Part shown: piece by piece, positions 18,029-36,835 of the stretch | Position numbering within the stretch: the first letter of the stretch is position 1 | Layout of the letters: each line of letters begins with the position of its first letter | Origin: Syntrophomonadaceae bacterium | GTDB lineage: Bacteria > Bacillota > Dethiobacteria > DTU022 | Length of the DNA: 36,836 nucleotides | NCBI GenBank assembly: GCA_007129055.1 | Contig: SKWE01000084.1 | Location: 1 to 36,836 of the forward strand | Reading direction: 5' to 3' | Translations under genes and position numbers: made by a program | Notes under the pieces: model-generated | Told to the model about the DNA's origin: nothing | What the model saw: the letters and a program-made list of their open reading frames with translations, nothing else | The model's database searches: none

Positions 18029-18099
18029 TAATCCGGGTTTAAGGGTGAAAATTATTTCCGGATATTTTATAAGAAAAGAGCTATGAGGAGGATAAAATA

Positions 18100-19239: not shown

Positions 19240-19280
19240 TACCTTTGATAGCAGATAAGAATGTGAAAGGAGTTTAAATA

Positions 19281-19808: not shown

Positions 19809-19852
19809 GGTCGCCAGCGGTAGATTATCGTTAAATATGATGAGGTGAATAT

Positions 19853-20818
19853 ATGCAGCAACTGGTTGCAGAGCTGCTTAAGGGTAATCGCAGGGCAGCT
19901 GCGCGCATGATATCGCATGTTGAAAATGATGATCCATTGAAAAGGATGCTACTGACAGAGCTCTATCCTCATACAGGTAAAGCTTACGTGATTGGGGTTA
20001 CGGGTGCGCCCGGCTCTGGCAAGAGTTCGCTGGTTGACTGCTTGCTTCAACAAATGCGCCGGGACGGTTTAAAGATTGGGGTGATAGCTGTTGACCCAAC
20101 CAGCCCTTTTAGCGGTGGAGCCATACTTGGTGATCGGATAAGAATGCAGGATCATGCCCTTGATCATGACATTTTTATCCGCAGCATGGGGACGAGAGGA
20201 AGCCTGGGTGGACTTTCTCGTTCAACGCGCGAAGCGATACAGGTGCTTGATGCATTTGGAAAAGATATCATTTTAATCGAAACAGTTGGCGTGGGTCAGT
20301 CGGAAGTTGATATAGTCAAAGCTGCTGATACTACAGTTGTTGTTTTGACTCCTGCCGGTGGAGACAGTGTTCAAACAATCAAAGCAGGCATTATGGAAAT
20401 TGCCGATCTTTTTGTGGTAAACAAGGCAGATTTACCGGGGGCAGAACGAACAACCACCGAGATAAATATTATGCTGGACATGAAAAAAGGTGATCATTGG
20501 AGACCGCCAGTTGTTCAAACAGTATCTGTCCAAAATAAAGGTCTCGATCAACTGTGGGAATTATTGCAGGAACACAGAAATTACATGAATGAAAGTGGCA
20601 AACTTGAAACGGTAAGGCTGGAGAGAGTTAAGCGTGAGCTTACTGACCAGGTAGAATACCTGCTTAAGAATAGCGTATGGGAACAAGTTAAAGAGGAGGT
20701 AAAGCTGGAGAAGTTGGTAGAGGAGATTGCCAACAGAAAAAACGATCCATACAGCGCCGCTTCCGAGTTGCTGGAGAAAATTAGCTTTTTTGATCAAAAA
20801 ACAGGGAAGGATGACTGA
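19853..20818 (+). CDS. meaB: MeaB/ArgK-type G-protein chaperone of B12-dependent acyl-CoA mutases
   Basis: 321 aa with GVTGAPGSGKSS, DPTSPFSGGAILGDRIRM, ETVGVGQSE and NKAD motifs. It lies 3 nt upstream of the mutase large subunit. Confidence 0.92.
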   Translation: MQQLVAELLKGNRRAAARMISHVENDDPLKRMLLTELYPHTGKAYVIGVTGAPGSGKSSLVDCLLQQMRRDGLKIGVIAVDPTSPFSGGAILGDRIRMQDHALDHDIFIRSMGTRGSLGGLSRSTREAIQVLDAFGKDIILIETVGVGQSEVDIVKAADTTVVVLTPAGGDSVQTIKAGIMEIADLFVVNKADLPGAERTTTEINIMLDMKKGDHWRPPVVQTVSVQNKGLDQLWELLQEHRNYMNESGKLETVRLERVKRELTDQVEYLLKNSVWEQVKEEVKLEKLVEEIANRKNDPYSAASELLEKISFFDQKTGKDD

Positions 20819-20821
20819 TTT

Positions 20822-22483: not shown

Positions 22484-22528
22484 TCATGCTTGTTTGGGTC
22501 AGAATGAAAGTGAAAGTGGTGAAATGAG

Positions 22529-24960
<2,432 letters not shown>

Positions 24961-25055: not shown

Positions 25056-26525
25056 CTACTCTTTAGTTTTCATCCCGGCCAGCTTTCTGACAATCTCCTT
25101 CTTTGCTTCAATATCGTATTGCGACGTAATTGCTATCTGCTCCATAACCGGAGATCCCCCACCGTGAAAAGCCCCGTAAAGCATGGAGCCAGATGAACCA
25201 GACAAGGCAAAATCAACAAAACTGAGCCAGAACTTAATCTGCTCTTCCATCGGTATATCAGGATTACGCTTAATATACTTTTCGAGTATATCTTTAGTTT
25301 CGGGATTAATCAGATCTTTTTCATAGGGGAATGTAGCAGGCATACCTCCTGCAATATTGCAAAGAATCTCCTGTTCATGAAAAACTGCTTCACCACTCAG
25401 ACATCTACCCACGTTGGCGTAAATAGAATGGGGGATGCAGTTGCCAGGGCCATAAGGAAGAAATCCCATTCCCGGGATATAAACTTCGGGTTTTCCAAGG
25501 GCGGAAGAAGTATACCCGGCAGCATAACCAAGTTCACCAACCATAATCAACTCGGATAACATTTCACGAACGTGCGGTGTTTTCTCGATTCCGTTAATCT
25601 CTGCGGCCAGGGCGGCAAGGCCGATGACATAGTCTAGCATTGCAGGTTTGCACCCTGAATATGAGTGACGGTGGAAAAGGGCAAATAGTAGGGCAGCAAC
25701 TCCCCCATGTTCCGTCTCCCCGCACGTGTAAACCCATTCCCATGGAATAAAACAATCTTCAAAGATAATATATGAATCTGTATAACCTATCTCCATTCCC
25801 CGCTGGTAATGTTCTCTTTTGCGCAGGTTATGAAAATGCACGATCTGTTTAACACCATCGTGGTCTGCAGGAACAGAAAAAGCCAGGGCATATTCTTTTT
25901 CATTATGCTTTAAGGCACGTGTTGGAACTACAAGGATTTCATCAGCTATGGAAGCTTCAGATATATGAACCTTTGAACCACGAACAACGATACCGTCACT
26001 TTTTTCTTCAACCACACGGACATACATGTCAGGGTCGCTTTGTTCAGAAGGCCTTTTTAATCTTTCACCTTTTACGTCTGTCTGGGCACAGCAGCCAACC
26101 AGGTCTTCATTCTGAAACCTTTCTAAAAACTTAAGCCAGTTGTCATGATAGGCAGTTTTTGGCTCAGGTGATTGCTGCGCCATGTAGGAGACTGCATGTA
26201 TAGCATTGGCAGCATCGGTTCCCATGCAGCGCTGTATGCACTGGCCCACCTTGTTGCAGAGGTAGCGAGTCATATCTTGCTTTTTATGCAGATCATCCGG
26301 TCCCTGGTGGATATGTGTAAAGCGGTTTATAGTATTACCCGTCAGGTGAGAAGTGGCAGTGCATAGATCCCTGCCTTCAGGATCAAGGGCTGCATCAAAT
26401 GTCAACCCCATAACATTTAAAGCAGGTTCCTGTCTTTCATCCAGGCGGTCGATCTTTTCTCCGTTAGCGTAAAGGTTGCGGTTCATTTTCGATAGGCGCT
26501 TAAAATATTCATCTCGTGTTATCAT
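25056..26525 (-). CDS. abfD: 4-hydroxybutyryl-CoA dehydratase / vinylacetyl-CoA isomerase (AbfD family)
   Basis: 489 aa, HpaB/AbfD fold family. CIQRC and HRHSYSGC align with the [4Fe-4S] ligands Cys99/Cys103 and His292/Cys299 of Clostridium aminobutyricum AbfD as I recall them. Confidence 0.85.
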   Translation of the reverse strand: MITRDEYFKRLSKMNRNLYANGEKIDRLDERQEPALNVMGLTFDAALDPEGRDLCTATSHLTGNTINRFTHIHQGPDDLHKKQDMTRYLCNKVGQCIQRCMGTDAANAIHAVSYMAQQSPEPKTAYHDNWLKFLERFQNEDLVGCCAQTDVKGERLKRPSEQSDPDMYVRVVEEKSDGIVVRGSKVHISEASIADEILVVPTRALKHNEKEYALAFSVPADHDGVKQIVHFHNLRKREHYQRGMEIGYTDSYIIFEDCFIPWEWVYTCGETEHGGVAALLFALFHRHSYSGCKPAMLDYVIGLAALAAEINGIEKTPHVREMLSELIMVGELGYAAGYTSSALGKPEVYIPGMGFLPYGPGNCIPHSIYANVGRCLSGEAVFHEQEILCNIAGGMPATFPYEKDLINPETKDILEKYIKRNPDIPMEEQIKFWLSFVDFALSGSSGSMLYGAFHGGGSPVMEQIAITSQYDIEAKKEIVRKLAGMKTKE

Positions 26526-26740: not shown

Positions 26741-28129
26741 ATGGAAAAGGATGAATTATCATCCCTGGCAGGCGATGGTAAAAATAAACTTTTATTGCAG
26801 ACAATTATCGATTCTTTATCCGATGCTGTATCTGTAGTTGATGAAAATGGTATAGGGATTATGATAAACCGTGCCTATACCCGTATTACCGGAATGACAG
26901 AAGAACAGGTATTACGAAAACCCGCTACAGTTGATATTGCTGAAGGGGAAAGTGTTCATATGAGGGTTCTGCAAACGAAAAAACCGATTAAGGGAGTCAG
27001 AATGAAGGTGGGGCCTTTCAGGCGTGAAGTTATTGTTTCCTGTGAACCACTGATCATAAACGGGGAGCTGAAAGGCAGTGTAGGTGTAATTCATGATATC
27101 TCAGAGCTGCGCAGGGTCATGGAGGAACTGGAGAGAACTAGGAAGTTAGTTAGAAAATTAGAGTCGCGCTATACCTTTGACGATATAATCGGTAACAGCG
27201 AACAGATAAAGAAAACTATTGAGCGGGCGAGTCATGCTGCCGCTACACCGGTTTCTGTTTTACTGCGGGGAGAAAATGGAACTGGGAAAGAACTGTTTGC
27301 ACATGCCATTCATCATGCCAGCGATCGATCAGAAAAACCTTTTATCAGGGTCAATTGCGCTTCTTTAACCGACACCCTGCTCGAGAGTGAACTTTTTGGT
27401 TATGCTGACGGAGCTTTTACAGGGGCCAAGAAAGGCGGTAGGAAGGGTTATTTTGAAGAAGCAGAGGGGGGCACTTTATTTCTTGATGAAATAGGCGCAA
27501 TGAATCTTGAAGCACAGGCCCGACTTCTACGTGCTCTCCAGGAAGGAGAAATAATCAGGGTTGGTGAATCACGAACGCGCAGGATTGATGTTAGGATAAT
27601 CGCCGCTACAAATTCTGACCTGGAGAAAATGGTTGAAAAAGAACATTTTCGTAAAGATCTTTATTATCGCCTTAATGTATTTCCAATAGACATGCCCCCA
27701 TTAAGGGATATTAAAAGTGATATACCACTTTTTGTTAATCACTTTTTAGCACGATTTGCACAGGAATATGGTAGAACGGTTGTAGATATTTCCACTGCAG
27801 CAACCAGGCGTCTTAAAGATTATGATTGGCCGGGGAACGTTCGCGAGCTTCAAAATGTAATTTCACGCGCCCTGATCAACTTGGAACGCGAAGAAACAAT
27901 AATTGAAGAGAAACATTTAATTATGCCTTTTACAAAAACAGAAGGAACAGTCGAGTCATATGAAGAACCGCTAACAGGTTCTTTAAGAGAAATGCATTTA
28001 ACCTGGGAAAGAAATATTTTACTCCAGGCGTTACAGGAAGCGGAGGGTAATAAAGCTGAAGCAGCTAGAAGGCTTGATATTTCAATTCGTAATTTATACA
28101 ACAAATTGCACCAGCACAAGCTGGTCTAG
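26741..28129 (+). CDS. Sigma-54-dependent transcriptional activator (PAS sensor - AAA+ - Fis-type HTH)
   Basis: 462 aa with an N-terminal PAS-like domain. It has Walker [24 protein letters not shown] (GAFTGA loop), [19 protein letters not shown] and the C-terminal [19 protein letters not shown]. Confidence 0.93.
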
Positions 28130-28173: not shown

Positions 28174-29337
28174 ATGCAAAAAATATTTAGGATGCCGCCG
28201 ACAGTAATTACCGGAGCAGGGTCTGCTGGTCACACAGGAAGCGAAATTAAGAAAATGGGCGTTAAAAAAGCTTTGATTATTACGGATAAGGTTATTGTGG
28301 AAATTGGCGCTTTGAAAAGCATTGAAGATTCATTAAAAGAAAATGGGATTAGCTATTCTGTTTTTGACGATATACCTACAGAGCCTACGGTTGAATATGT
28401 TGATAAAGGCATTAAAGCATACAGGAATGACAAATGTGATTGCCTGCTTGCTATAGGGGGTGGCAGTGCAATTGATACTGCCAAGGCAATTTCTGTAATG
28501 TTGACGAATGAAGGCGAAATATCAGATTATATGGGCCTTGATAAAATAAAAAATAGCGGTGTGCCTTTAATTGCTGTTCCTACCACTGCCGGAACAGGCA
28601 GTGAAGTTACTATATTTACAATTATCACCGACACACATAATGATGTTAAGATGCTAATTGGTGGCGGCCTTTTGATGCCCCAGGTTGCTATAGCGGATCC
28701 GCTGCTGACCATTTCAATGCCACCGGCGTTAACAGCAGCTACAGGTATGGATGCCCTGTGTCATGCAATAGAAGCCTACGTTTCTCTAAAAGCGAATCCT
28801 TTAAGTGATATATTTGCTCTTTCAGCAATCGAGTTGTTATCGGATTTCCTGAGGGCTGCCTGGGCCAATGGCAATAACCTGGAAGCGAGAGAAAAAGTTA
28901 TGATAGCATCGTTGAAAGCCGGAGTTGCCTTTACCAACTCGTCTGTTACCCTGGTGCACGGAATGTCCAGGCCGATCGGAGCAAATTTTCATGTTCCCCA
29001 TGGTTTATCCAACGCAGTTTTACTGACAACTGTTATGGAATATAGTTTAATGGCAAATCCGGAAAGATACGCAAAAATTTCCGAAACTATGGGATTTAAT
29101 ACTTATGGATTAAACGTTCTTGAAGCTGCAAAGCTTTCTGTTGATGCCGTAAAAGATCTCGTCCGGGATATCAAGATTCCTTCAATGCAAGAACTCGGGA
29201 TTGAAGAATCAAGACTAATTGAGAAAGCGCCCAAAATGGCGGAAGCCGCAATAAAAAGTGGCAGCCCTGGCAATAACCCACGACAGGTAACAAAAGAAGA
29301 TATAATAAATTTATATAAAGCAGCATATTCTAGTTAA
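28174..29337 (+). CDS. Iron-containing (group III) alcohol dehydrogenase; possible 4-hydroxybutyrate dehydrogenase
   Basis: 387 aa with GGGSAIDTAK, metal-site His motifs (CHAIEAY, VHGMSRPIGANFHVPHG) and an AGGAGG RBS. Substrate assignment rests on context only (abfD nearby). Confidence 0.85.
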   Translation: MQKIFRMPPTVITGAGSAGHTGSEIKKMGVKKALIITDKVIVEIGALKSIEDSLKENGISYSVFDDIPTEPTVEYVDKGIKAYRNDKCDCLLAIGGGSAIDTAKAISVMLTNEGEISDYMGLDKIKNSGVPLIAVPTTAGTGSEVTIFTIITDTHNDVKMLIGGGLLMPQVAIADPLLTISMPPALTAATGMDALCHAIEAYVSLKANPLSDIFALSAIELLSDFLRAAWANGNNLEAREKVMIASLKAGVAFTNSSVTLVHGMSRPIGANFHVPHGLSNAVLLTTVMEYSLMANPERYAKISETMGFNTYGLNVLEAAKLSVDAVKDLVRDIKIPSMQELGIEESRLIEKAPKMAEAAIKSGSPGNNPRQVTKEDIINLYKAAYSS

Positions 29338-29363
29338 AATAATAAGGATAAGTTATATCGTAG

Positions 29364-29395
29364 CCCCTGGTTAACGCAAACCGGGGGTTTTTATT
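29364..29395 (+). terminator. Rho-independent terminator after the alcohol dehydrogenase gene
   Basis: A 9-bp stem CCCCUGGUU/AACCGGGGG with a 6-nt loop, followed by UUUUUAUUUU. Confidence 0.8.
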
Positions 29396-29443
29396 TTATA
29401 AAGTTATTGATACAAGTCAGTCCGATGCTAGAAAAGTGAAACA

Positions 29444-29459
29444 TGGTACGATAATTGCA
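29444..29459 (+). promoter_or_regulatory. Sigma-54 (-24/-12) promoter
   Basis: TGGTACGATAATTGCA is a near-perfect match to TGGCAC-N5-TTGCA. It lies downstream of a terminator, upstream of the OFOR operon, and 1.3 kb from a sigma-54 EBP gene. Confidence 0.7.
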
Positions 29460-29588
29460 AATATTTAATAGAGAAAAACAAATTTTGAACTTAAGCGTCG
29501 GTCCGGAGCAGATGTTTTAATGATTGCCCAGTGTATGATCTATAAGCCAGTGAAAGCGAGAGTCCACTTAATTGCAGGCAGCTAAGCA

Positions 29589-29602
29589 TGCAATATATTG
29601 CA
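29589..29602. repeat. Perfect 14-bp palindrome TGCAATATATTGCA in the OFOR leader, overlapping a 10-bp direct repeat ATTGCAGGCA (29571-29580 and 29597-29606)
   Basis: Read directly from the sequence. An 8-bp palindrome CTTGCAAG at 29628-29635 abuts the RBS. Confidence 0.6.
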
Positions 29603-29648
29603 GGCAAACAATTACATCATGCATAATCTTGCAAGGGAGGGGTAAGGT

Positions 29649-30239
29649 TTGGAAAATGAAATGCTGGAGTTTAGGATACACGGCAGGGGCGGACAGGGAA
29701 TTGTTGTTGCTGCTGCGATCTTTGCCGAAGCAGTTTTTATGGAGGGTTATTATGCCAGGGCTTTTTCACTTTTCGGAGCGGAAAGAAGGGGTGCCCCGGT
29801 TACGGCTTTTATCAGGGCGGGAAAAAACAGGCTTATGCCCCGCAGCAGGGTGTATCACCCCGATTATGTAGCAATCTTTGATTCGACCATGACCGGCGCT
29901 TCGCTTGTTTCCGGATTAAAGAAGAGTGGAACATTACTGTTGAACAGTAAAAATGACTTTAAAAATAGCTTATTTAAAGATATCCCCAGGGACATGGATA
30001 TTAAAACATTTTTTGTGGATGCTACCGACATAGCCTGGAAGCATAACCTGGCGATAGGCAGTTTCCCAATGGTAAACACGGTGATGCTCGGAGCAATGGC
30101 GCATAACAGCGGCATGGCTTCACTGGACAGTTTAGTCGAGTCAATCCGGAAGAGAGTTTCAGCAAGGCTGGAAGAAAATATTGCAGCAGTTAAAGAAGGA
30201 TTCGAGAGTGTAAAGGAGGTGGGAAGTTTTGTTAACTGA
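29649..30239 (+). CDS. 2-oxoacid:ferredoxin oxidoreductase, gamma subunit
   Basis: FRIHGRGGQGIVVAAAIFAEA...FGAERRGAPV is typical of Por/Vor/Kor gamma subunits. TTG at 29649 is 8 nt after GGGAGGGG; ATG at 29661 is the alternative start. Confidence 0.9.
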   Translation: MENEMLEFRIHGRGGQGIVVAAAIFAEAVFMEGYYARAFSLFGAERRGAPVTAFIRAGKNRLMPRSRVYHPDYVAIFDSTMTGASLVSGLKKSGTLLLNSKNDFKNSLFKDIPRDMDIKTFFVDATDIAWKHNLAIGSFPMVNTVMLGAMAHNSGMASLDSLVESIRKRVSARLEENIAAVKEGFESVKEVGSFVN

Positions 30240-31776
30240 TACAGTGCAACATGAAAAACCATGTTACTCATGTGGCTTTGAACCAAGCACGGCAAATAAA
30301 ACAGGGGATTGGAGATTTCTAACACCTGAAAAGAGGAGCAGGCTTTCGCCCTGTCGGCAGGATTGCCTGCTTGATGGAGAAATACCACAGTGGATGGAAG
30401 CAGTAAAGCAGGAAAAGTGGGAAGAGGCCTGGGATATAGTAAGCAGATATAATCCATTTCCCGCGATAACTGGATATGTATGCTATCATCCATGCAGCGA
30501 TAACTGTAACAGGGGGGAACTCGACCAGGGTATTGCCATTGAAGAAGTTGAAAAGGCAATTGGCGAGTGGCGATTAAACAATATTAAGCCACAGCAAAAA
30601 CTTGTAAAACTTAAAGGACGGGTTGGAGTTGTAGGTTCCGGACCGGCTGGTTTAAGCTGTGCTTATTATCTTAACAAAGCAGGTTATGAAGTAACAATAT
30701 ATGAAAGAACAGCCTTAATTGGTGGCATGCTTGCTCTTGGAATACCGGAATATCGCTTGCCCCGAAATATACTTTCCAGGGAACTAAATTTTTTAGAAGA
30801 AGAAGGTGTTCGCTTCATAGAAAGCTGCTCCATAGGAAATGACTATGACCTTTGCCAGCTATACGAAGAGTTTGACAGTGTTTTTCTGGCAACTGGCGCC
30901 TGGAAGCCCCGCAGAGCATTTATTCCCGGTGAAGAAGATAGAAAAGTATACAACGCCCTGGATTTTCTCAGCGCGATAAATAGTGGGGAGAAAATTGAAA
31001 TATCTGATCCGGTAATTGTCATCGGTGGGGGAAATGCAGCAATTGACAGTGCCCGATCTGCCTTAAGGCTTAAAGGGATAAACCATGTCAGCCTGGTTTA
31101 CAGGCGCAGCCGGGCTGAAATGCCGGCGAACCAGGAAGAAGTAGAAGCAGCAGAGCGAGAAGGCGTGGAAATGGTTTTCAACGCTTTGCCCAGGGAAATA
31201 GAAAAAGAAGAGCAAACTATAAAGGGCTTGCTGTTTGATTACTGCAAGACTGATTTGAACGGTCTTTCAATTGACAGGAGCCGCTCTTTTAGCAAAGGCT
31301 GCGGAACTGTTATTATGGCTCTTGGGCAGCAGGCAGATCTCTCTTTATTCTGTAATGTTGAAAGTAACGTGTCTTTATTTGCCGGGGGTGACCTGGTTAC
31401 AGGACCGTCAACTGTCCCCGAGGCTATTAGAGCAGGTAGGGTTGCAGCATACAGTATAATTTCAGAACTTGAAGGTTCTCCAGCACCGAAACTGATGCTT
31501 CCTGAACAACCTGTTGTAACATTTGAAGAACTGAACCTGGCTACAAAGCTTAATGTAAAGATGCAGCACAGAGAAGAGACGCCAGCATTGGAAGCATCTC
31601 GATGCCTTGGTTGCGGAACCTGCAATTCATGCGGAACATGCTTTGTCTTTTGCCCTGATATGGCTGTTGACATAATTAATGGCCGATATGAACTTAACCT
31701 TGATTATTGCAAAGGTTGTGGAATTTGTGTCAAAGAATGTCCGGCCCAGGCGCTGGTAATGGAAGGAGGTAGATAG
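30229..31776 (+). CDS. OFOR delta-subunit with inserted GltD/NfnB-like FAD/NAD(P)H oxidoreductase module
   Basis: 515 aa. Residues 23-30 (NKTGDWRF) resemble the delta-subunit N-terminal arm. Residues 41-110 form a GltD-type Cys region (CRQDC...IPQW...NPFPAITGYVCYHPCSDNC). Two Rossmann motifs are present: VGVVGSGPAGLSCAYYL and VIVIGGGNAAIDSA. Residues 459-506 form a 2x[4Fe-4S] ferredoxin (CLGCGTCNSCGTCFVFCP ... CKGCGICVKECP). The gene occupies the delta position in a G-D-A-B gene order and overlaps the gamma gene by 11 nt. Confidence 0.85.
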   Translation: MLTDTVQHEKPCYSCGFEPSTANKTGDWRFLTPEKRSRLSPCRQDCLLDGEIPQWMEAVKQEKWEEAWDIVSRYNPFPAITGYVCYHPCSDNCNRGELDQGIAIEEVEKAIGEWRLNNIKPQQKLVKLKGRVGVVGSGPAGLSCAYYLNKAGYEVTIYERTALIGGMLALGIPEYRLPRNILSRELNFLEEEGVRFIESCSIGNDYDLCQLYEEFDSVFLATGAWKPRRAFIPGEEDRKVYNALDFLSAINSGEKIEISDPVIVIGGGNAAIDSARSALRLKGINHVSLVYRRSRAEMPANQEEVEAAEREGVEMVFNALPREIEKEEQTIKGLLFDYCKTDLNGLSIDRSRSFSKGCGTVIMALGQQADLSLFCNVESNVSLFAGGDLVTGPSTVPEAIRAGRVAAYSIISELEGSPAPKLMLPEQPVVTFEELNLATKLNVKMQHREETPALEASRCLGCGTCNSCGTCFVFCPDMAVDIINGRYELNLDYCKGCGICVKECPAQALVMEGGR

Positions 31777-31777: not shown

Positions 31778-32920
31778 ATGGCATACGAAATGTTAAGCGG
31801 CAGTCAGGCTGCGGCTGCAGCAGTCCAACGGGCGAATGTTGACCTTGTAGCGGCTTATCCTATAACACCCCAAACCGCCATAGTTGAAACCCTGGCTAAT
31901 TTTGAGGCAAAGGGAGAACTGGGCGGAGATTTTGTAAGTGTTGAATCAGAATATGCAGCACTGGCCTGTTGTTATGGTGCAGCTGCAGCCGGTGCAAGAG
32001 TGTTTACCGCAACAGCGTCACACGGCCTTGCCTACATGCACGAAGTTATTCATTGGTGCAGCGGAGCCAGGGTGCCGGTAGTAATGGTAAACGTTAATCG
32101 CGCAATTGGCGCTCCATGGTGCCTTGATCCAGACCAGGGCGATAGTCTTAGCCAACGGGATACCGGGTGGATGCAGATCTACTGTTCCGGAGCCCAGGAG
32201 GTATTTGATACTGTTTTGCAGGCTTATGTGTTGAGTGAAGAACTCCTGCTACCCTGCCTGGTCGTATTTGATGGCTTTTATATATCTCACACATATGAAG
32301 CCGTTGATGTGCCTGAAAAAGAGAAAACGCTTGAATTTGTGGGTGAAAAGAAGTTTAAGGCGCAGGTAATACCCGGAGCACCTGCCAACCTGCATGGTTT
32401 AACAACTGGCGACAACCAGATATTACTTGTTAAGAATCGCCATGAAACCATGATTAAAGCTATAGATTTATTTAAAGATGTTAACAAAAAATATGAAGAA
32501 TTTTTTGGACGAAGTTACAAGGTAGTGGATAGTGTAATACCACCAGGTTCTACTACTGTTTTTATGGCAGCAGGAGCCACGGTTGAAACTATTCGCTGGG
32601 CGCTTCCTGAACTTGACGATTGTGGCTTGATCCAGTTAAGGATGTTTCGTCCTTATCCGGCGGAAGAGCTTTGTGCCATTCTTGAAGCGCACGAGGTTGA
32701 AAGAGTTATTGTCGTTGACAGGAACTGCTCGGTAGGTATGGGCGGTATATTTTCGCAGGAATTGAGAGCCGCTCTGTATAAAATGGAAAAACCACCGGTG
32801 GTTGAGGATCTTATTTTGGCTGGTGGAATAGATTTAACTGTTGAGATGCTGCACAAAGCATTAGAACCTGTAAATGAAGATAGGCTAACAGATCAGAAAT
32901 GGGGGGTTGATGTGCGATGA
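31778..32920 (+). CDS. 2-oxoacid:ferredoxin oxidoreductase, alpha subunit
   Basis: 380 aa containing SGSQAAAAAVQRANVDLVAAYPITPQT. The start is 1 nt after the preceding stop. Confidence 0.9.
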   Translation: MAYEMLSGSQAAAAAVQRANVDLVAAYPITPQTAIVETLANFEAKGELGGDFVSVESEYAALACCYGAAAAGARVFTATASHGLAYMHEVIHWCSGARVPVVMVNVNRAIGAPWCLDPDQGDSLSQRDTGWMQIYCSGAQEVFDTVLQAYVLSEELLLPCLVVFDGFYISHTYEAVDVPEKEKTLEFVGEKKFKAQVIPGAPANLHGLTTGDNQILLVKNRHETMIKAIDLFKDVNKKYEEFFGRSYKVVDSVIPPGSTTVFMAAGATVETIRWALPELDDCGLIQLRMFRPYPAEELCAILEAHEVERVIVVDRNCSVGMGGIFSQELRAALYKMEKPPVVEDLILAGGIDLTVEMLHKALEPVNEDRLTDQKWGVDVR

Positions 32921-33816
32921 AAACAGGTGAACTGAACAAAGACTCCGAGATGCTTTATTCAGGACATAACGCCTGCCCTGGTTGTGGAGCGGCACTGGCG
33001 GTAAGGTATCTTACAAGGGCACTGGGGCCAAACCTTGCCATAGTATTAACAGCTTCCTGTTGGAGTATAATTTCCGGTATGCCACCGCTAACCGCCTTAA
33101 AGTGCCCCATACTACACTGCCCTTTTCCCAGTGCAGGCTCTGTGGGAAGTGGTGTTAAAAGGGGATTGAAGGCAACGGGTCAGAGCGATACAACTGTTGT
33201 TGTTCTCGCCGGGGACGGCGGTACTTTTGATATAGGCCTCCAGGCTATGTCGGGAGCAGCCCAGCGTAATGAAGACTATATATTTGTCTGTTATGACAAT
33301 GAGGCGTATATGAATACGGGTATGCAGACAAGTTCAGCAACTCCATTTGGGGCAAGAACTGCTACGGCCCCATACCCACTCTTTAAAGCCGGGCAGAAAA
33401 AAGATATTATGCAGATTATGGCTGCCCACGGGATTCCTTATGCAGCTACGGCAACAGTAGCCTTTCCTGATGATATGGAAAATAAATTAAAAAAAGCTCA
33501 GAAAATAAGTGGATTTCGATTTATTCATATTTTATCACCCTGTCCACCTGGTTGGGGGACAGAATCTTCCGATACAATACACCTATCAAGGTTGGCTGTT
33601 TCGAGCGGATTTTTCCCCCTGTATGAAATTGAAAACGGTGTGACATGGAGAATGACCAATTTACAGGAAGAGAAAAGAACTCCATTAAAAGAATACCTTT
33701 CTGCCCAGCGCAGATTTAAACAAATGGACGAGGCAAGAATGGCACAGCTGCAGCAGGAGGTAGATCATGATTGGGATTGCCTGATGGAAAAGGTTGTCAC
33801 CTGCCCCTCTGAATAA
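32917..33816 (+). CDS. 2-oxoacid:ferredoxin oxidoreductase, beta (TPP-binding) subunit
   Basis: 299 aa with the motifs CPGCGAALAVRYL and GDGGTFDIGLQAMSGA...YDNEAYMNTG. There is a 4-nt ATGA overlap with the alpha gene. Confidence 0.9.
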   Translation: MKTGELNKDSEMLYSGHNACPGCGAALAVRYLTRALGPNLAIVLTASCWSIISGMPPLTALKCPILHCPFPSAGSVGSGVKRGLKATGQSDTTVVVLAGDGGTFDIGLQAMSGAAQRNEDYIFVCYDNEAYMNTGMQTSSATPFGARTATAPYPLFKAGQKKDIMQIMAAHGIPYAATATVAFPDDMENKLKKAQKISGFRFIHILSPCPPGWGTESSDTIHLSRLAVSSGFFPLYEIENGVTWRMTNLQEEKRTPLKEYLSAQRRFKQMDEARMAQLQQEVDHDWDCLMEKVVTCPSE

Positions 33817-34033
33817 ATGGGAAAGATTCAAACTGAGCCCAATTCAGGGAAATGTGCAGGTGAGAAATAGCTTTGATAAATCAATATGACTTCTAGTCGT
33901 CATGTGCGAAAATAAATTTTAGAATTATAATAAAAATTATAACCTGCAGCAGGAATTTTATCAGAGAAGCAGAAAATTAGAATAATGCAGGTTGTTTTTA
34001 ACCTGGAAATTAATTATCTGGGAGGTGTCAGGT

Positions 34034-34879
34034 TTGCGGGAAATAGCCGCGTCAACGATTTCTGATCATGTGGCTGAGATGTGCGAGGAAGCGAATATTT
34101 ACCTGGGCGAGGAAGAATTTCAGGCTTTGAAAGACGCGCTTGAAACTGAAGAATCGCCAACCGGCAGGGAAGTTCTGAAACAGTTGATTGAGAACGTGGA
34201 AATTGCCCGGAATGAGCAAATACCGATTTGTCAGGATACGGGATTTGCTGTTTTTTTTGTTGAATGGGGCCAGGAATTACACCTTACGGGAGGAACCCTG
34301 GAAGAAGCGATTAATGCAGGTGTACGCAGGGGTTATGATGAAGGATACCTGCGCAAGTCTATAGTAGACGATCCTCTTTATGACCGTAAGAATACAGGTG
34401 ATAATACTCCCGCTGTAATATATACAGATATTGTGCCAGGCGATAAAGTAAAAATTGCTTTTGCTCCAAAAGGTGGGGGCAGTGAAAATATGAGTACCGT
34501 GAAAATGTTAAAACCTTCAGATGGTGAAGATGGCCTGGTAGATTTTGTTGTAAATCATGTAAAAGCTGCCGGCCCTAACCCCTGCCCACCTATTGTGGTT
34601 GGTGTTGGTATAGGAGGAACCTTTGACAAAGTTGCAGTTCAGGCGAAAAAAGCTTTATTCCGTCCTGTGGGTACACCGCATGCCGACAGCAGGTTTGCAG
34701 CTCTTGAAAAGAAAATCCTCAATAAAATAAACGATCTGGGTGTTGGGCCCCAGGGTTTTGGAGGGAGAACCTTCGCCCTGGCAGTTCATATTGAAACGTA
34801 TCCTTCTCACATTGCCAGCATGGCTGCGGCAGTCAACATTAACTGCCATGCCTGCAGGCATCTTGAAAGAACATTATAA
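34034..34879 (+). CDS. Class I (Fe-S) fumarate hydratase / L-tartrate dehydratase family, alpha subunit
   Basis: Contains PICQDTG and GGGSENMS motifs. TTG at 34034 is 6 nt after GGGAGGTG and gives a typical length of about 281 aa. The ORF-track start at 33992 has no RBS. Confidence 0.88.
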   Translation: MREIAASTISDHVAEMCEEANIYLGEEEFQALKDALETEESPTGREVLKQLIENVEIARNEQIPICQDTGFAVFFVEWGQELHLTGGTLEEAINAGVRRGYDEGYLRKSIVDDPLYDRKNTGDNTPAVIYTDIVPGDKVKIAFAPKGGGSENMSTVKMLKPSDGEDGLVDFVVNHVKAAGPNPCPPIVVGVGIGGTFDKVAVQAKKALFRPVGTPHADSRFAALEKKILNKINDLGVGPQGFGGRTFALAVHIETYPSHIASMAAAVNINCHACRHLERTL

Positions 34880-34906
34880 TTTAAAAAGTGAAAGGAGGCA
34901 TTGATA

Positions 34907-35458
34907 ATGGAACCAAAAAAAATTCAGGCTCCCCTGAGCGATGAAGATGTAATGTCTCTGAAGGCAGGAGATAATGTACTTATAAATGGCGTTATTTATA
35001 CAGCAAGGGATGCTGCGCATAAAAAACTGGTTGAACTGATGGATAAAGGGGAATCACTGCCAATTGATTTAGCCGGTCAGTTCATTTATTATGTCGGTCC
35101 CACACCGGCAAAGCCGGGCCAGGCGATAGGCTCTGCAGGACCGACAACAAGCGGCAGGATGGATGTATATACTCCAAAAATGCTAGATAAAGGTATGAAG
35201 GCCTGCATCGGCAAGGGGCTGCGCAGCCAGGCTGTAAAAGATGCCCTGCAGCAGTATAAAGGGCTTTATTTGGCCGCTGTGGGTGGGGCAGGTGCACTGC
35301 TCTCAAAGCGGATTAAAAAATGTGAAGTTGTGGCTTATCCCGAGCTTGGCGCTGAAGCAATTCACCGTCTTGAAGTCGAGGACTTTCCTGCCACAGTTAT
35401 CAATGATGCTTATGGAAATGATCTTTATGCCGAAGGGGCAAAAGAATACGCAAGGTAG
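34907..35458 (+). CDS. Class I (Fe-S) fumarate hydratase / L-tartrate dehydratase family, beta subunit
   Basis: Contains YYVGPTPAKPGQAIGSAGPTTSGRMD and GKG motifs. GGAGG lies 10 nt upstream of the ATG at 34907. Confidence 0.88.
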   Translation: MEPKKIQAPLSDEDVMSLKAGDNVLINGVIYTARDAAHKKLVELMDKGESLPIDLAGQFIYYVGPTPAKPGQAIGSAGPTTSGRMDVYTPKMLDKGMKACIGKGLRSQAVKDALQQYKGLYLAAVGGAGALLSKRIKKCEVVAYPELGAEAIHRLEVEDFPATVINDAYGNDLYAEGAKEYAR

Positions 35459-35494: not shown

Positions 35495-36835
35495 ATGACA
35501 ATGAATAAAGATGAATTGCTGGCAAAAGCGAAAAAGCCGGCCGAAGACGCAATGAAGCTTCACCCATTTTATAAGGGTAAACTGCAGGTTGATTTAAAAT
35601 GCTGTGTTCGCGATATTAAGGATTTTGCCATCTGGTATACACCAGGTGTAGCTGAGCCCTGTAAGGCAATTGCAAAAAACAAGGAAGATGTTTTTAAATA
35701 CACCAATAAGGCAAACTTTGTAGCAGTTGTTTCTGACGGAACCAGGGTCCTGGGGTTGGGTGATATCGGCCCTGAAGCCAGCATGCCGGTTATGGAAGGG
35801 AAAGCGCTGCTGTTTAAATATTTAGGCGGTGTAGACGCATTCCCGGTGTGCGTTGATACGAAGGATGCTGATGAATTGATTAATTTTGTAAAACTGATGC
35901 AGCCCTGTTTCGGGGGAATTAACCTTGAAGATATAGCAAGCCCGAAATGTTTTTACGTTCTTGACAGGCTAAGGGAAGAATGCCATATCCCCGTATGGCA
36001 CGATGATCAGCAGGGAACTGCCATGGTAACAGTGGCCGGTTTGATCAATGCGCTTAAGATTGTCGACAAGACTATGAAAGATGCCAAGATCGTAATGATG
36101 GGTGCAGGTGCAGCTAATATATGTACTATCCGCCTGCTTGAAGCAGCCGGTGCTGATCCCGGCAATACAGTGATGATCGACAGCAAGGGTGCTTTACATA
36201 AAGGGCGAACAGAATTGAAGGAGCAGCATCCGGTTAAGTGGGAACTCTGCCAGACTACTAATGCTGCTAACATAACAGGCGGTGCCGCAGAGGCCTGCAA
36301 AGGTGCCGATGTAATCATCGGCCTTTCCACACCCGGTCCGGATACTATCAAGAAAGAGTGGATTGAGAGTATGGCGGATGATGCAATTGTCTTTGCCTGT
36401 GCCAACCCGATCCCTGAAATTTGGCCCTGGGAAGCGCTTGAAGCAGGGGCAAGAATTGTCTCCACCGGACGTTCAGATTTTCCAAACCAGGTAAACAATT
36501 CTCTTGGTTTCCCGGCTATTTTCCGTGGAGTCTTAGATGTACAGGCTACTACCATAACCGACTCGATGTGTATAGCAGCTGCAGAAGAATTGGCAGCTTG
36601 CGCTCCCGATGGCGGTATGAATCCTGAAATGATTTTGCCCACTATGGATATGTGGGAAGTGTTTCCCCGTGTAGCTACAGCAACAGCCATGAAAGCTATA
36701 GAAGAGGGTGTGGCCCGACTGGAGCTGAGCCGCGATGAAATCTATAAGCTGGCGGAAGAATCTATCAGTAAAGCACAAAAACAGACAAAACTCCTGATGG
36801 ATGAAGGTTTCATTCCAGCACCGCCTGCCGAATAA
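35495..36835 (+). CDS. NAD(P)-dependent malic enzyme (short form, no PTA domain)
   Basis: 446 aa containing YTPGVAEPC, VVSDGTRVLGLGDIGPEASMPVMEGKALLFK, FGGINLEDI and the dinucleotide motif MMGAGAANI. The stop codon is at 36833-36835. Confidence 0.92.
   Translation: MTMNKDELLAKAKKPAEDAMKLHPFYKGKLQVDLKCCVRDIKDFAIWYTPGVAEPCKAIAKNKEDVFKYTNKANFVAVVSDGTRVLGLGDIGPEASMPVMEGKALLFKYLGGVDAFPVCVDTKDADELINFVKLMQPCFGGINLEDIASPKCFYVLDRLREECHIPVWHDDQQGTAMVTVAGLINALKIVDKTMKDAKIVMMGAGAANICTIRLLEAAGADPGNTVMIDSKGALHKGRTELKEQHPVKWELCQTTNAANITGGAAEACKGADVIIGLSTPGPDTIKKEWIESMADDAIVFACANPIPEIWPWEALEAGARIVSTGRSDFPNQVNNSLGFPAIFRGVLDVQATTITDSMCIAAAEELAACAPDGGMNPEMILPTMDMWEVFPRVATATAMKAIEEGVARLELSRDEIYKLAEESISKAQKQTKLLMDEGFIPAPPAE

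What the first reader, a model, noticed from the sequence alone, without database searches (positions are those of the whole stretch)
30229..31776. OFOR delta subunit with an inserted GltD/NfnB-like flavoprotein: a predicted 2-oxoacid:NAD(P)+ oxidoreductase, possibly electron-bifurcating
Seen in sequence: the gene in the delta position of a gamma-delta-alpha-beta operon encodes 515 aa instead of about 100. The genes show overlaps or 1-nt junctions that suggest translational coupling. The protein begins with the delta-arm motif NKTGDWRF (compare NKTGSWRV in archaeal PorD, as I recall it). It ends with a 2x[4Fe-4S] ferredoxin core. Between these lies a full GltD/NfnB/SudA-like unit: a Cys-rich N-region with IPQW and NPFPAITGYVCYHPC, an FAD Rossmann motif GSGPAGLSCA, and an NAD(P) Rossmann motif GGGNAAIDSA. 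The first ferredoxin motif is unusually Cys-dense (CLGCGTCNSCGTCFVFCP, six Cys). Inference: electrons from TPP-dependent 2-oxoacid oxidation could pass directly through the delta clusters to FAD and NAD(P)+. This would bypass free ferredoxin, or, since NfnB-type flavins are bifurcation sites, couple ferredoxin and NAD(P) pools. Partial precedents exist, namely NADP-reducing KGOR (KorABC) of Azoarcus and the eukaryotic PFOR-CPR fusion (PNO). I am not aware of a characterised four-subunit enzyme with this domain-insertion architecture.
Basis: partly seen in the sequence, partly recalled or inferred. Interest (0 to 1): 0.7.

Follow-up and report, generated by a model that had tools for sequence, protein, structure and literature searches.

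The report
NADP-linked 2-oxoacid oxidoreductase, flavoprotein-bearing delta subunit
The small iron-sulfur (delta) subunit of a four-subunit 2-oxoacid oxidoreductase carries a complete NADPH-binding flavoprotein spliced into it, so this widespread but unstudied enzyme probably passes electrons from keto-acid oxidation directly to NADP+ rather than to free ferredoxin.

Summary
ORF 30229-31776 (515 aa) lies between the gamma, alpha and beta genes of a Por/Vor-type OFOR, with overlapping or 1-nt junctions. It is not a frameshift artefact. More than 120 full-length homologue clusters exist. About 100 clusters at 50% identity carry both hallmark motifs. The gamma-X-alpha-beta order recurs in Bacillota, Planctomycetota, Actinomycetota and Syntrophales. 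Thirteen representatives also have gamma fused on.

Removing residues 39-462 restores a colinear PorD that passes the family cut-off, so this is a true insertion. New here: the inserted GltD/NfnL module is circularly permuted. Its first CxxC lies at its C-terminal end (RC459LGC462), next to the delta core. This explains the six-Cys motif. It gives 15 invariant Cys plus Glu108, enough for four [4Fe-4S] clusters.

The closest solved relatives are the inserted NfnL-like domains of NfnA/StnC. These share the permuted order, bind NADPH and are non-bifurcating. No NfnS-like partner is encoded nearby.

The best reading is a linear wire from TPP to FAD to NADP+. Bifurcation is unsupported but not excluded. 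The substrate is unresolved: branched-chain 2-oxoacids or pyruvate. Azoarcus KGOR is a biochemical precedent. I rate this a new variant of a known kind, of moderate interest.

The parts
26741..28129 (+). PAS / sigma-54 AAA+ / HTH_8 enhancer-binding protein, the likely activator of the operon
   Evidence: Pfam: Sigma54_activat 238 bits, PAS, HTH_8. An 82%-identical orthologue lies upstream of the same operon in L002 and L003. EBPs with the same Pfam domain set lie upstream in L033 and L034.
29443..29459 (+). Sigma-54-type -24/-12 promoter element, ATGGTACGATAATTGCA
   Evidence: It is the only match in the window (0.23 expected). It lies after the terminator at 29362-29389. Equivalent boxes lie between the EBP gene and the operon in L002, L003, L033 and L034.
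29588..29640 (+). Conserved non-coding element just upstream of gamma; it contains the palindrome TGCAATATATTGCA and further TGCA boxes
   Evidence: Nearly invariant in the window and in L001-L003 although the flanks diverge. No Rfam match. No RNA-structure signal (z = -0.36). Function unknown.
29649..30239 (+). OFOR gamma subunit
   Evidence: PF01558 POR, 130 bits. TIGR02175 PorC_KorC, 171.9 bits, above the 81.1 cut-off.
30229..30342 (+). Delta N-terminal arm (aa 1-38, with NKTGDWRF)
   Evidence: TGxWR is invariant in the family. Adding the arm to the C-terminal core raises the PorD_KorD score from 56.3 to 77.5 bits and extends the match to model positions 7-75. The spliced sequence is colinear with M. 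acetivorans PFOR delta 9bt4_G, residues 12-80. pLDDT is below 50 in the monomer model, as expected for a segment that folds only in the complex.
30346..30588 (+). Second part of the GltD/DPD-type Fe-S domain (aa 40-120: C42, C46, C85, C89, C93, E108)
   Evidence: Fer4_20 matches only profile positions 30-110. The five Cys are invariant and E108 is at least 90% conserved.
30604..31488 (+). FAD and NAD(P)H Rossmann domains (aa 126-420: GSGPAG, GGGNAA, YRR)
   Evidence: Pyr_redox_2, 85.8 bits. PDB sequence hits: NfnA 9n5u (E 1.8e-70), NfnB and GltD. AF2 model: pLDDT 86.9, pTM 0.86. Foldseek best hits: 9bov_A, 9n5u_A, 8oh5_C.
31582..31620 (+). Displaced first part of the GltD-type Fe-S domain (aa 452-464, ..EASRC459LGC462GT)
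   Evidence: Joining aa 440-464 to aa 40-125 raises Fer4_20 from 54.9 to 78.4 bits and extends the match to profile positions 9-110; a control gives 55.4 bits. The construct aligns colinearly with T. maritima NfnB residues 31-130, E 9.4e-13. The same holds in 34 of 34 family members.
31621..31776 (+). Delta-type 2x[4Fe-4S] ferredoxin core (aa 465-515: C465/468/471/475 and C494/497/500/504)
   Evidence: The best NCBIfam hits for this segment are PorD_KorD and PorD_Arch. All eight Cys are invariant.
31778..32920 (+). OFOR alpha subunit
   Evidence: POR_N 211 bits and PFOR_II. The best NCBIfam hits are PorA_Arch (340.9) and a 2-ketoisovalerate alpha model (310.5), both below their equivalog cut-offs.
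32917..33816 (+). OFOR beta subunit (TPP and proximal [4Fe-4S])
   Evidence: TPP_enzyme_C. The best NCBIfam hits are the VorB-type PRK11864 (364.7) and PorB (340.3), both below the 405 cut-off. CPGCG, GDGG and SPCPPGW are visible in the translation.
33992..35458 (+). Class I fumarate hydratase alpha and beta genes (conserved neighbours, possibly a separate transcript)
   Evidence: Fumerase and Fumerase_C. PRK06246, 401 bits, above the 276 cut-off. Also a neighbour in L001, L002 and L033-L035.
35495..36835 (+). Malic enzyme gene (neighbour; its stop codon ends at 36835, one base before the window end)
   Evidence: ORF list. NADP-dependent malic enzyme subfamily, 331 bits, below cut-off. Conserved in L002 and L034.

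Best explanation
The four genes encode a Por/Vor-type 2-oxoacid oxidoreductase with a built-in NADP+ reductase.

Proposed electron path:
1. TPP in beta oxidatively decarboxylates a 2-oxoacid to an acyl-CoA.
2. Electrons pass to the beta [4Fe-4S] cluster.
3. They move to the two delta-type [4Fe-4S] clusters.
4. They move to the two GltD/NfnL-type [4Fe-4S] clusters.
5. They reach FAD.
6. FAD reduces NADP+ by hydride transfer.

The net reaction is 2-oxoacid + CoA + NADP+ -> acyl-CoA + CO2 + NADPH. It needs no free ferredoxin and involves no bifurcation.

The flavoprotein is a circularly permuted cassette inserted between the delta arm and the delta core. Its last two cluster ligands (C459, C462) lie three residues before the first delta-core ligand (C465). 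One loop therefore ligates neighbouring clusters of the two modules and ties them together.

In the Bacillota members, expression is sigma-54 dependent and uses an adjacent PAS-containing activator. The operon often begins with a Leu/Val/Phe-type amino-acid dehydrogenase. This makes it an anaerobic counterpart of the Bacillus bkd operon. Branched-chain 2-oxoacids are therefore likely substrates there. Pyruvate is the alternative.

Shown here: the architecture, its conservation, the ligand count and the permutation. Inferred: the direction of electron flow, the NADP+ preference, the absence of bifurcation and the substrate.
For: Architecture and operon.

True insertion into delta:
- The spliced arm plus core scores 77.5 bits on PorD_KorD, above the 60.05 cut-off. 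The core alone scores 56.3 bits.
- The spliced sequence is colinear with 9bt4_G, E 8e-18.

Permuted cassette. The same order is seen in the solved 9bov_A, where 'EASRCLECG' follows the module, and in a 1394-aa multidomain protein in L018.

Ligand count: 15 invariant Cys plus Glu108, enough for four clusters.

Structure: the AF2 model has pTM 0.86. The best structural matches are the NfnA/StnC chains, with TM 0.75-0.77 over about 590 columns. Free NfnL and GltD give 0.65-0.69.

Literature on NfnA/StnC: the NfnL-like FAD domain is described as inserted, binds NADPH, and has a non-bifurcating FAD that feeds a linear cluster chain (PMC10482914; PMC12018979).

NADPH motif: identical in pattern to that of T. 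sibiricus NfnA. R292 and R293 are at least 90% conserved.

Integral OFOR subunit:
- The gamma-X-alpha-beta order is conserved in four phyla.
- Gamma is fused to the flavoprotein-bearing delta in 13 representatives.

Precedent: the NADP+-reducing Azoarcus KGOR has a GltD-homologous subunit (PMC10134865).

Regulation and substrate context. The best NCBIfam hit for beta is the VorB type.
Against: - No member has been purified or assayed.
- Delivering electrons at about -500 mV to NADP+ at -320 mV discards energy that anaerobes normally conserve through ferredoxin. This is odd for a syntroph-like organism.
- The proximal-cluster ligand is Glu108, as in bifurcating NfnL, although GltD also has Glu. 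The non-bifurcating NfnA/StnC have Lys at this position.
- The Arg of the YRLP motif is present, so a bifurcating flavin cannot be excluded from sequence.
- The second delta cluster may still be exposed to ferredoxin.
- No coordinates were available, so cluster-to-cluster distances were not measured.
- Substrate clues conflict. ELFV dehydrogenases point to branched-chain 2-oxoacids. Pyruvate is suggested by the fumarase and malic enzyme neighbours, a lactate-dehydrogenase-like pair in L004 and CstA in L011.
Confidence: 0.6

Rival explanations
1. Dual-acceptor or branched enzyme. The delta core still reduces free ferredoxin, and the cassette acts as a built-in ferredoxin:NADP+ oxidoreductase. 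Electrons from 2-oxoacid oxidation would be split between ferredoxin and NADP+ according to the redox state of the cell, without energetic coupling.
For: The delta core is intact, with all eight Cys, and is very close to free-standing PorD. The cassette ligands C459 and C462 abut the first Cys motif of delta. From my recollection of the D. africanus PFOR structure, this motif binds the medial cluster. That would leave the distal cluster as a possible second exit.
Against: No ferredoxin gene lies in the operon. The model gives one compact body (pTM 0.86), so the cassette may cover the usual ferredoxin docking face. The cluster assignment rests on memory and was not tested.
Confidence: 0.17
2. 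Flavin-based electron bifurcation or confurcation. The cassette FAD would couple NADP(H) to ferredoxin and a second carrier, as in NfnSL. This could, for example, allow NADPH-assisted reductive carboxylation.
For: The cassette belongs to the NfnL/GltD family. It keeps the Glu ligand (E108) and the YRLP Arg (R176) found in bifurcating NfnL.
Against: No NfnS-like (PyrK-type FAD plus [2Fe-2S]) partner or other second exit from the flavin is encoded in the window operon or in L033-L035. Glu and Arg also occur in non-bifurcating GltD. The cassette's closest sequence and structural relatives are the non-bifurcating NADPH entry domains of NfnA/StnC.
Confidence: 0.1
3. Anabolic 2-oxoacid synthase. NADPH would feed electrons through the cassette to drive reductive carboxylation of acyl-CoA, for pyruvate or branched-chain amino-acid synthesis.
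For: OFORs are reversible. The architecture occurs in Brocadiia-related Planctomycetota. Relatives of these are known, from general knowledge, to fix CO2 through acetyl-CoA.
Against: The reaction is thermodynamically uphill by about 180 mV without bifurcation. The Bacillota operons sit with catabolic genes: an amino-acid dehydrogenase, an aminotransferase and a sigma-54 catabolic-type activator.
Confidence: 0.05
4. The flavoprotein module reduces a different acceptor, such as polysulfide, a disulfide or oxygen, or has a regulatory or protective role rather than reducing a pyridine nucleotide.
For: From general knowledge, GltD-family proteins such as SudA/NfnB were first described with polysulfide reductase activity. 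Public names for these proteins are generic, for example 'FAD-dependent oxidoreductase'.
Against: The second Rossmann motif GGGNAA and the YRR 2'-phosphate motif are invariant or nearly so. This argues for a conserved NADP(H) site.
Confidence: 0.05
5. Artefact: two genes (gltD-like and porD) merged by a sequencing or assembly frameshift.
For: None found.
Against: The same uninterrupted architecture occurs in more than 120 independent clusters and in four phyla. The delta arm lies N-terminal and the delta core C-terminal of the insert. No simple merger of two adjacent genes could produce this.
Confidence: 0.01

Closest known systems
Four-subunit pyruvate/2-oxoisovalerate:ferredoxin oxidoreductases (PorGDAB/VorGDAB; for example M. 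acetivorans PFOR, PDB 9bt4)
   Same: Same gamma, alpha and beta subunits and the same gene order. Same delta arm and 2x[4Fe-4S] core. Once the insert is removed, the delta sequence aligns colinearly with 9bt4_G and passes the PorD_KorD cut-off.
   Different: Delta carries a roughly 424-residue FAD, NADP(H) and 2x[4Fe-4S] cassette. Alpha and beta fall below every equivalog cut-off. The acceptor is predicted to be NADP+ rather than ferredoxin.
NfnL-like domain of Bfu-type NfnA/StnC (T. sibiricus and C. saccharolyticus NfnABC, S. ovata StnABC; PDB 9n5u, 9bov, 8oh5)
   Same: These are the best sequence and structural matches. The cassette has the same permuted order, with the RCxxCG segment after the Rossmann domains. 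It is likewise inserted into a host Fe-S protein and carries the same NADPH motif. In those enzymes it acts as a non-bifurcating NADPH port wired by two [4Fe-4S] clusters (PMC10482914, PMC12018979).
   Different: The host is a PorD-type delta subunit of a TPP enzyme, not a NuoG/Fdh-like subunit. The proximal-cluster ligand is Glu108, not Lys. No NfnB/NfnC bifurcating core is present.
2-oxoglutarate:NADP+ oxidoreductase (KGOR) of Azoarcus evansii
   Same: It is a biochemically characterised OFOR that reduces NADP+. It contains a GltD-homologous subunit, called 'KGOR-alpha', placed in the GltD family tree in PMC10134865 (citing Ebenau-Jehle et al. 2003).
   Different: From my recollection, that enzyme is built on a two-subunit KorAB core with the flavoprotein as a separate subunit, and it acts on 2-oxoglutarate. 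Here the core is four-subunit Por/Vor type and the flavoprotein is spliced into delta.
NADH-dependent phenylglyoxylate dehydrogenase PadEFGHI (Azoarcus/Aromatoleum)
   Same: A Por-type OFOR that reduces a pyridine nucleotide. Gamma, delta, alpha and beta here all give sub-threshold hits to the PadE, PadF, PadG and PadI models.
   Different: By my recollection, Pad has a separate fifth flavoprotein subunit, PadH. No Pad flavoprotein model appeared among the 25 best NCBIfam hits for the 515-aa protein. PadH is therefore not a close GltD-type relative.
Pyruvate:NADP+ oxidoreductase (PNO) of Euglena and Cryptosporidium
   Same: A covalent fusion of a PFOR with an NADP+-reducing flavoprotein. The principle of bypassing ferredoxin is the same (general knowledge).
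   Different: PNO joins a single-chain PFOR end to end with a cytochrome P450 reductase-type FMN/FAD module. That module belongs to a different flavoprotein family, there is no domain insertion, and PNO is eukaryotic.
GltD / NfnB (NfnL) / N-terminal part of dihydropyrimidine dehydrogenase; NCBIfam PRK12771 'NAD(P)-binding protein'
   Same: Same fold and cofactor set. The PRK12771 model (566 positions) aligns over the whole protein, at model positions 28-481 and 504-563.
   Different: Canonical members have the Fe-S domain in one piece at the N-terminus. Here it is split and permuted. The PRK12771 score is 434.5, below the curated cut-off of 516, and that model carries no functional name.

Membership tests
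Four-subunit Por/Vor-type 2-oxoacid:acceptor oxidoreductase | Gamma subunit with a POR domain | tested here: met
   PF01558, 130 bits. TIGR02175, 171.9 bits, above the 81.1 cut-off.
Four-subunit Por/Vor-type 2-oxoacid:acceptor oxidoreductase | Alpha subunit (POR_N + PFOR_II) and beta subunit (TPP-binding, Cys ligands for the proximal [4Fe-4S]) | tested here: met
   Pfam hits. CPGCG, GDGG and SPCPPGW are visible in the beta translation.
Four-subunit Por/Vor-type 2-oxoacid:acceptor oxidoreductase | Delta subunit: N-terminal arm plus 2x[4Fe-4S] ferredoxin core (TIGR02179) | tested here: met
   The native protein scores 50.8 bits and the core alone 56.3 bits, both below the 60.05 cut-off. With aa 39-462 removed the score is 77.5 bits over model positions 7-75 of 78. 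The spliced sequence is colinear with 9bt4_G.
Four-subunit Por/Vor-type 2-oxoacid:acceptor oxidoreductase | Equivalog-level identity as PorA/PorB or VorB (substrate assignment) | tested here: not met
   PorA_Arch 340.9 (cut-off 550). PorB 340.3 (cut-off 405). VorB-type PRK11864 364.7 (cut-off 405).
Four-subunit Por/Vor-type 2-oxoacid:acceptor oxidoreductase | Ferredoxin as the physiological acceptor | not testable with these tools
   This needs enzyme assays.
GltD / NfnL / DPD-type Fe-S flavoprotein | Fer4_20 Fe-S domain with seven Cys plus a Glu/Gln ligand set for two [4Fe-4S] clusters | tested here: met
   The native match covers only profile positions 30-110. The permuted construct covers positions 9-110 at 78.4 bits. 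The invariant residues C42, C46, C85, C89, C93, C459 and C462, plus E108, give the full set. Actual ligation was not verified structurally.
GltD / NfnL / DPD-type Fe-S flavoprotein | FAD and NAD(P)H Rossmann domains | tested here: met
   Pyr_redox_2, 85.8 bits. GSGPAG and GGGNAA are invariant. The fold matches NfnL and GltD with TM 0.65-0.69.
GltD / NfnL / DPD-type Fe-S flavoprotein | Curated cut-offs of the GltD or gltA models | tested here: not met
   TIGR01316 233.5 (cut-off 471.75). TIGR01318 219 (cut-off 482.95). TIGR01317 183.9 (cut-off 447.7).
NfnSL-type electron-bifurcating transhydrogenase | NfnS partner (PyrK-like FAD plus [2Fe-2S]) giving a second electron exit from the L-FAD | tested here: not met
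   No such gene lies among the annotated neighbours in the window or in L033-L035.
NfnSL-type electron-bifurcating transhydrogenase | Glu-ligated proximal cluster and an Arg at flavin N5 | tested here: inconclusive
   E108 and R176 are present. Non-bifurcating GltD has the same residues. The Arg is also present in NfnA/StnC.
Inserted NfnL-like cassette of Bfu-type NfnA/StnC | Permuted order, with the RCxxCG segment after the Rossmann domains, and insertion into a host Fe-S protein | tested here: met
   The same order is seen in 9bov_A. These chains are the best fold matches.
Inserted NfnL-like cassette of Bfu-type NfnA/StnC | Lys ligand to the proximal cluster; a NuoG/Fdh-like host with an NfnBC core | tested here: not met
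   Glu108 aligns with that Lys. The host is PorD, and no NfnB or NfnC genes are present.
NCBIfam NF009410 (PRK12771, 'NAD(P)-binding protein') | Score at or above the curated cut-off of 516 | tested here: not met
   434.5 bits. The alignment does span model positions 28-481 and 504-563 of 566.
Azoarcus-type 2-oxoglutarate:NADP+ oxidoreductase | KorAB-type two-subunit core, a separate GltD-type subunit, 2-oxoglutarate specificity | not tested
   The sequence and the original paper were unavailable. Alpha and beta here match Kor-type models only weakly, at 67-114 bits.

The most novel reading that the evidence does not exclude
The cassette FAD is a bifurcating or confurcating site inside a TPP enzyme. 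It would couple 2-oxoacid oxidation, or acyl-CoA carboxylation, to both NADP(H) and ferredoxin, with the still-intact distal delta cluster serving as the ferredoxin port. This would be a new class of flavin-based bifurcating enzyme, found in four phyla.
Probability: 0.1. Interest if true: 0.85.

Novelty: new variant of a known kind. Interest (0 to 1): 0.5.

Why it matters
OFORs are routinely scored as ferredoxin-reducing steps in metabolic reconstructions of anaerobes. This family may instead produce NADPH directly. It comprises about 100 or more clusters at 50% identity and occurs in Bacillota, Planctomycetota, Actinomycetota and Syntrophales. If so, redox and energy budgets inferred for these organisms are wrong at a central step: pyruvate or branched-chain keto-acid oxidation.

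The gene is currently annotated with generic names such as 'FAD-dependent oxidoreductase', which hides its role as an OFOR subunit.

The permuted cassette also suggests why the NfnL/GltD module recurs as an insert. A cluster shared between its two ends would bring them close together, which suits insertion into a loop of a host protein. It turns up in NfnA/StnC, a 1394-aa multidomain protein and PorD. NCBIfam also aligns E. coli-type YgfK across the cassette and core.

A ferredoxin-independent, NADPH-generating keto-acid decarboxylase could also be useful in pathway engineering.

Tried and rejected
1. Frameshift or merger artefact. Rejected on conservation and on the arm-insert-core topology.
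2. I recalled that the fifth subunit of the Hydrogenobacter/Aquifex five-subunit OFORs was GltD-like. This is wrong. It is CODH/ACS-epsilon-like (PMC10052474), so that family is not a precedent.
3. PadH as a GltD-type precedent. I could not verify it. No Pad flavoprotein model was among the 25 best NCBIfam hits, and a paper search gave nothing useful.
4. The original Azoarcus KGOR and bzd papers are not held. Only a secondary citation was obtained.
5. Literature searches for a described delta-GltD fusion found nothing.
6. Cys12 and Cys15 as cluster ligands. Rejected because they are not conserved.
7. Loci L015-L027 from the genome scan are GltD-cassette proteins in other hosts, for example a 1394-aa multidomain protein in L018. 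They have no OFOR neighbours, so I excluded them from the family.
8. The conserved TGCA-box leader as a riboswitch or RNA structure. There is no Rfam hit and no folding signal.
9. Cluster-to-cluster distances could not be measured, because model coordinates are not exposed by the tools.
10. Cluster-member names gave only MAG labels and no cultured or characterised organism.

Full report
**1. Observation**

The ORF at 30229-31776 (+) has a TTG start and encodes 515 aa.
- Pfam places Fer4_20 at aa 40-117, Pyr_redox_2 at aa 131-385 and a 4Fe-4S dicluster at aa 464-510.
- The gene before it is an OFOR gamma subunit (PF01558; TIGR02175 171.9 bits, cut-off 81.1).
- The genes after it are alpha (POR_N + PFOR_II) and beta (TPP_enzyme_C).
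- Gamma and delta overlap by 11 nt, and AAGGAGGTG lies just upstream of the delta TTG start.
- Delta and alpha are separated by 1 nt. Alpha and beta overlap as ATGA.

**2. Not an artefact: a large family**

A search of 5.8 billion proteins returned at least 120 clusters at 90% identity. All but one are 505-556 aa and cover at least 95% of the query, at 91% down to 43% identity. Nearly all come from Bacillota metagenome-assembled genomes (MAGs) and carry only generic names.

A genome scan found the nearest relatives (82% and 66% identity) in Syntrophomonadaceae MAGs. It found the same end-to-end architecture in Planctomycetota/Brocadiia, Actinomycetota (Thermoleophilia, Gaiellales) and Syntrophales.

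Wherever the contig extends far enough, and apart from one Gaiellales locus (L012), the gene lies between gamma and alpha-beta homologues.

An exhaustive phmmer search against 1.84 billion representatives at 50% identity gave 3383 hits at E <= 1e-30; these include GltD-like proteins generally.
- Of the best 150, 98 carry both the arm motif and the downstream six-Cys motif.
- Thirteen representatives of 710-780 aa also have a gamma subunit fused at the N-terminus (blastp E 1e-13 to 1e-43).

This fusion is independent evidence that the flavoprotein-bearing delta is an integral OFOR subunit.

**3. Anatomy: a true insertion**

The C-terminal 64 residues alone score best against the PorD families, but below threshold (TIGR02179 56.3 bits; cut-off 60.05; model positions 26-75).

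I then joined aa 1-38 directly to aa 463-515.
- The score rose to 77.5 bits, and the match extended to model positions 7-75 of 78.
- The spliced sequence aligns colinearly with the delta subunit of the solved M. acetivorans PFOR (9bt4_G residues 12-80 of 85, E 8e-18). Only a one-residue gap falls at the splice point.
- Including RCLGC in the splice lowers the score to 68.5 bits.

Residues 39-462 are therefore foreign to delta.

**4. Anatomy: the insert is circularly permuted**

In an alignment of 34 family members from four phyla, exactly 15 Cys are invariant:
- C42, C46, C85, C89 and C93
- C459, C462, C465, C468, C471 and C475
- C494, C497, C500 and C504

Cys12 and Cys15 are not conserved. 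A second alignment of 41 sequences gave the same result and showed E108 conserved in at least 90%.

The Pfam Fer4_20 match starts only at profile position 30. The first CxxC of the canonical CxxCxxxxCxxxC motif is therefore missing at the N-terminus.

I tested whether the missing piece lies at the C-terminal end of the insert.
- The native N-terminal region (aa 26-125) scores 54.9 bits on Fer4_20, over profile positions 30-110.
- Joining aa 440-464 (..EASRCLGCGT) to aa 40-125 (SPCRQDC..) raised this to 78.4 bits, and the match extended to positions 9-110.
- A control 25-mer (aa 415-439) gave 55.4 bits.
- The construct aligns without a gap across the artificial junction to T. maritima NfnB residues 31-130 (E 9.4e-13) and to A. 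brasilense GltD.
- The permuted construct beats the native N-terminus in 34 of 34 family members.

The first two Cys are ligands of the GltD-type cluster pair. The next four are the first Cys motif of delta.

The count of 15 Cys plus Glu108 gives four [4Fe-4S] clusters in this subunit. C462 and C465 lie three residues apart. The cluster each helps bind must therefore be a close neighbour of the other (inference).

**5. Relatives of the cassette**

By sequence, the best solved match is NfnA of T. sibiricus NfnABC (9n5u, E 1.8e-70). Next come 9bov and StnC (8oh5). All rank well ahead of GltD, and 9n5u and 9bov ahead of free NfnB.

An AlphaFold2 model has pLDDT 86.9 and pTM 0.86, with only aa 1-26 disordered. 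It matches the same three chains best, with TM 0.75-0.77 over about 590 columns. NfnL and GltD give 0.65-0.69 over about 425 columns.

9bov_A has 'EASRCLECG' after its module, which is the same permuted order. So does a 1394-aa multidomain protein in L018. NCBIfam's YgfK model aligns across aa 39-507.

The literature describes the FAD domain of NfnA/StnC as inserted. It is the NADPH entry point, and its flavin is non-bifurcating and feeds a linear chain of clusters. Bifurcation takes place elsewhere in those complexes (PMC10482914; PMC12018979).

The NADPH-region motif VYRRSRAEMPANQEEVEAAEREGV is almost identical to that of T. sibiricus NfnA.

One difference stands out. The non-Cys ligand of the proximal cluster is Glu108 here, as in NfnL and GltD, but Lys in NfnA/StnC.

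**6. Mechanism**

The most economical reading is a linear wire: TPP, beta cluster, two delta clusters, two cassette clusters, FAD, NADP+. This gives a ferredoxin-independent 2-oxoacid:NADP+ oxidoreductase.

Bifurcation as in NfnSL requires a second exit from the flavin. No NfnS-like gene lies in the window or in three further loci. The Glu and Arg residues are shared with non-bifurcating GltD and are therefore not diagnostic.

I put bifurcation at about 0.1. A non-coupled dual-acceptor enzyme, in which ferredoxin still docks at the delta core, is about 0.17.

**7. Context and substrate**

A terminator follows the upstream Fe-ADH gene. A sigma-54 -24/-12 box (ATGGTACGATAATTGCA, 29443-29459) precedes the operon. 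A PAS/AAA+/HTH activator gene lies upstream.

Equivalent boxes occur in all four further loci that have the activator. In L002, L033 and L034 the first gene after the box is a 345-369-aa Leu/Val/Phe-type (ELFV) dehydrogenase, followed by gamma, delta, alpha and beta. L033 adds an aminotransferase.

This mirrors the sigma-54/BkdR-dependent bkd operon of Bacillus, which contains leucine dehydrogenase and the branched-chain keto-acid dehydrogenase (PMC4428206). The best NCBIfam hit for beta is the VorB type. Branched-chain 2-oxoacids are therefore plausible substrates in the Bacillota.

Other clues favour pyruvate:
- Fumarase and malic enzyme (or Mdh), with Sdh-like genes, are conserved neighbours.
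- The Brocadiia locus has a GlcD/CCG lactate-dehydrogenase-like pair.
- The Syntrophales locus has CstA.

Alpha and beta miss every equivalog cut-off. The substrate is unresolved.

**8. Comparison and novelty**

The principle of an OFOR made NADP+-dependent by a GltD-type flavoprotein is known. The example is Azoarcus evansii KGOR, whose GltD-homologous subunit is placed in the family tree in PMC10134865. PNO and PadEFGHI are looser analogies.

The extra subunit of the Aquificales five-subunit OFORs is CODH/ACS-epsilon-like and is not related (PMC10052474).

NCBIfam already has a nameless full-length model, PRK12771; the protein scores 434.5 against a cut-off of 516.

I found no paper that describes or characterises the delta-insertion architecture. 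The library excludes most subscription journals.

My verdict is a new variant of a known kind. The architecture is firmly established. The function is inferred. Interest is moderate (0.5).

Noticed in passing
window 29588-29640; L001 ~447-500; L002 ~2786-2840; L003 ~5363-5417: A non-coding element of about 50 nt lies directly upstream of gamma: TGCAATATATTGCAGGCAAACAATTACATCATGCATAATCTTGCAAGGGAGG. It has a perfect 14-bp palindrome and further TGCA boxes. It is nearly invariant across loci whose proteins are only 65-80% identical. It has no Rfam match and no RNA-folding signal. It may be an operator or an internal promoter (TTGCAG-18-CATAAT).
   Followed up: partly
window 29443-29459; L002 ~1661; L003 ~4240; L033 ~5177; L034 ~5245: A conserved sigma-54 -24/-12 box, TGG(C/T)A(C/T)G-N4-TTGC(A/G), lies between the PAS activator gene and the operon in all five Bacillota loci that have the activator. 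This resembles the BkdR/SigL-dependent bkd operon of Bacillus.
   Followed up: partly
window 28174-29337, compared with L002 1666-2775, L033 5349-6416 and L034 5299-6336: In the window, an Fe-type alcohol dehydrogenase with its own terminator occupies the slot that in related loci holds a Leu/Val/Phe-type amino-acid dehydrogenase. That dehydrogenase gene looks co-transcribed with the OFOR. The window therefore appears to carry a gene replacement at this position.
   Followed up: partly
proteins P0141, P0142, P0173, P0184, P0203, P0207, P0210, P0214, P0248, P0254, P0263, P0272, P0279: These representatives of 710-780 aa carry an OFOR gamma subunit fused N-terminally to the flavoprotein-bearing delta, making a triple fusion. 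P0281 (1131 aa) has a weak beta/TPP-like segment ahead of the cassette.
   Followed up: partly
L018 5779-9963 (Desulfoferrobacter suflitae), also L015, L019 and L021: Multidomain proteins of about 1250-1500 aa lie at the GltD-like hit in these loci. The L018 protein (1394 aa), the only one examined, contains the same permuted NfnL/GltD cassette; its later domains look HdrA-like by eye but were not annotated. None of the loci has OFOR neighbours. The cassette appears to be a mobile NADPH module used by several host Fe-S proteins.
   Followed up: no
window 15639-22933: A cluster of genes lies next to the purine operon: thiolase, two acyl-CoA dehydrogenases, corrinoid adenosyltransferase, MeaB and a two-part methylmalonyl/isobutyryl-CoA mutase. 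LigA (22951-24960) separates it from the OFOR region. The mutase-LigA-activator-OFOR order is also seen in L034.
   Followed up: partly
window 9013-10995: A membrane H+-translocating pyrophosphatase gene (930 bits) lies in the middle of an otherwise contiguous purine-biosynthesis gene cluster.
   Followed up: no
window 25056-26525 (-): A 489-aa HpaB-family protein (weak match, 119 bits) is encoded on the opposite strand, just upstream of the activator. Its size and family would fit a 4-hydroxybutyryl-CoA dehydratase-like enzyme. This was not tested.
   Followed up: no
L002 10171-10854; L034 14003-15557: Downstream of malic enzyme in related loci lie a 226-227-aa Fe-S protein (2Fe-2S plus 4Fe-4S) and a FAD_binding_2 protein. 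They look like a succinate dehydrogenase/fumarate reductase pair. The window ends before this point.
   Followed up: no
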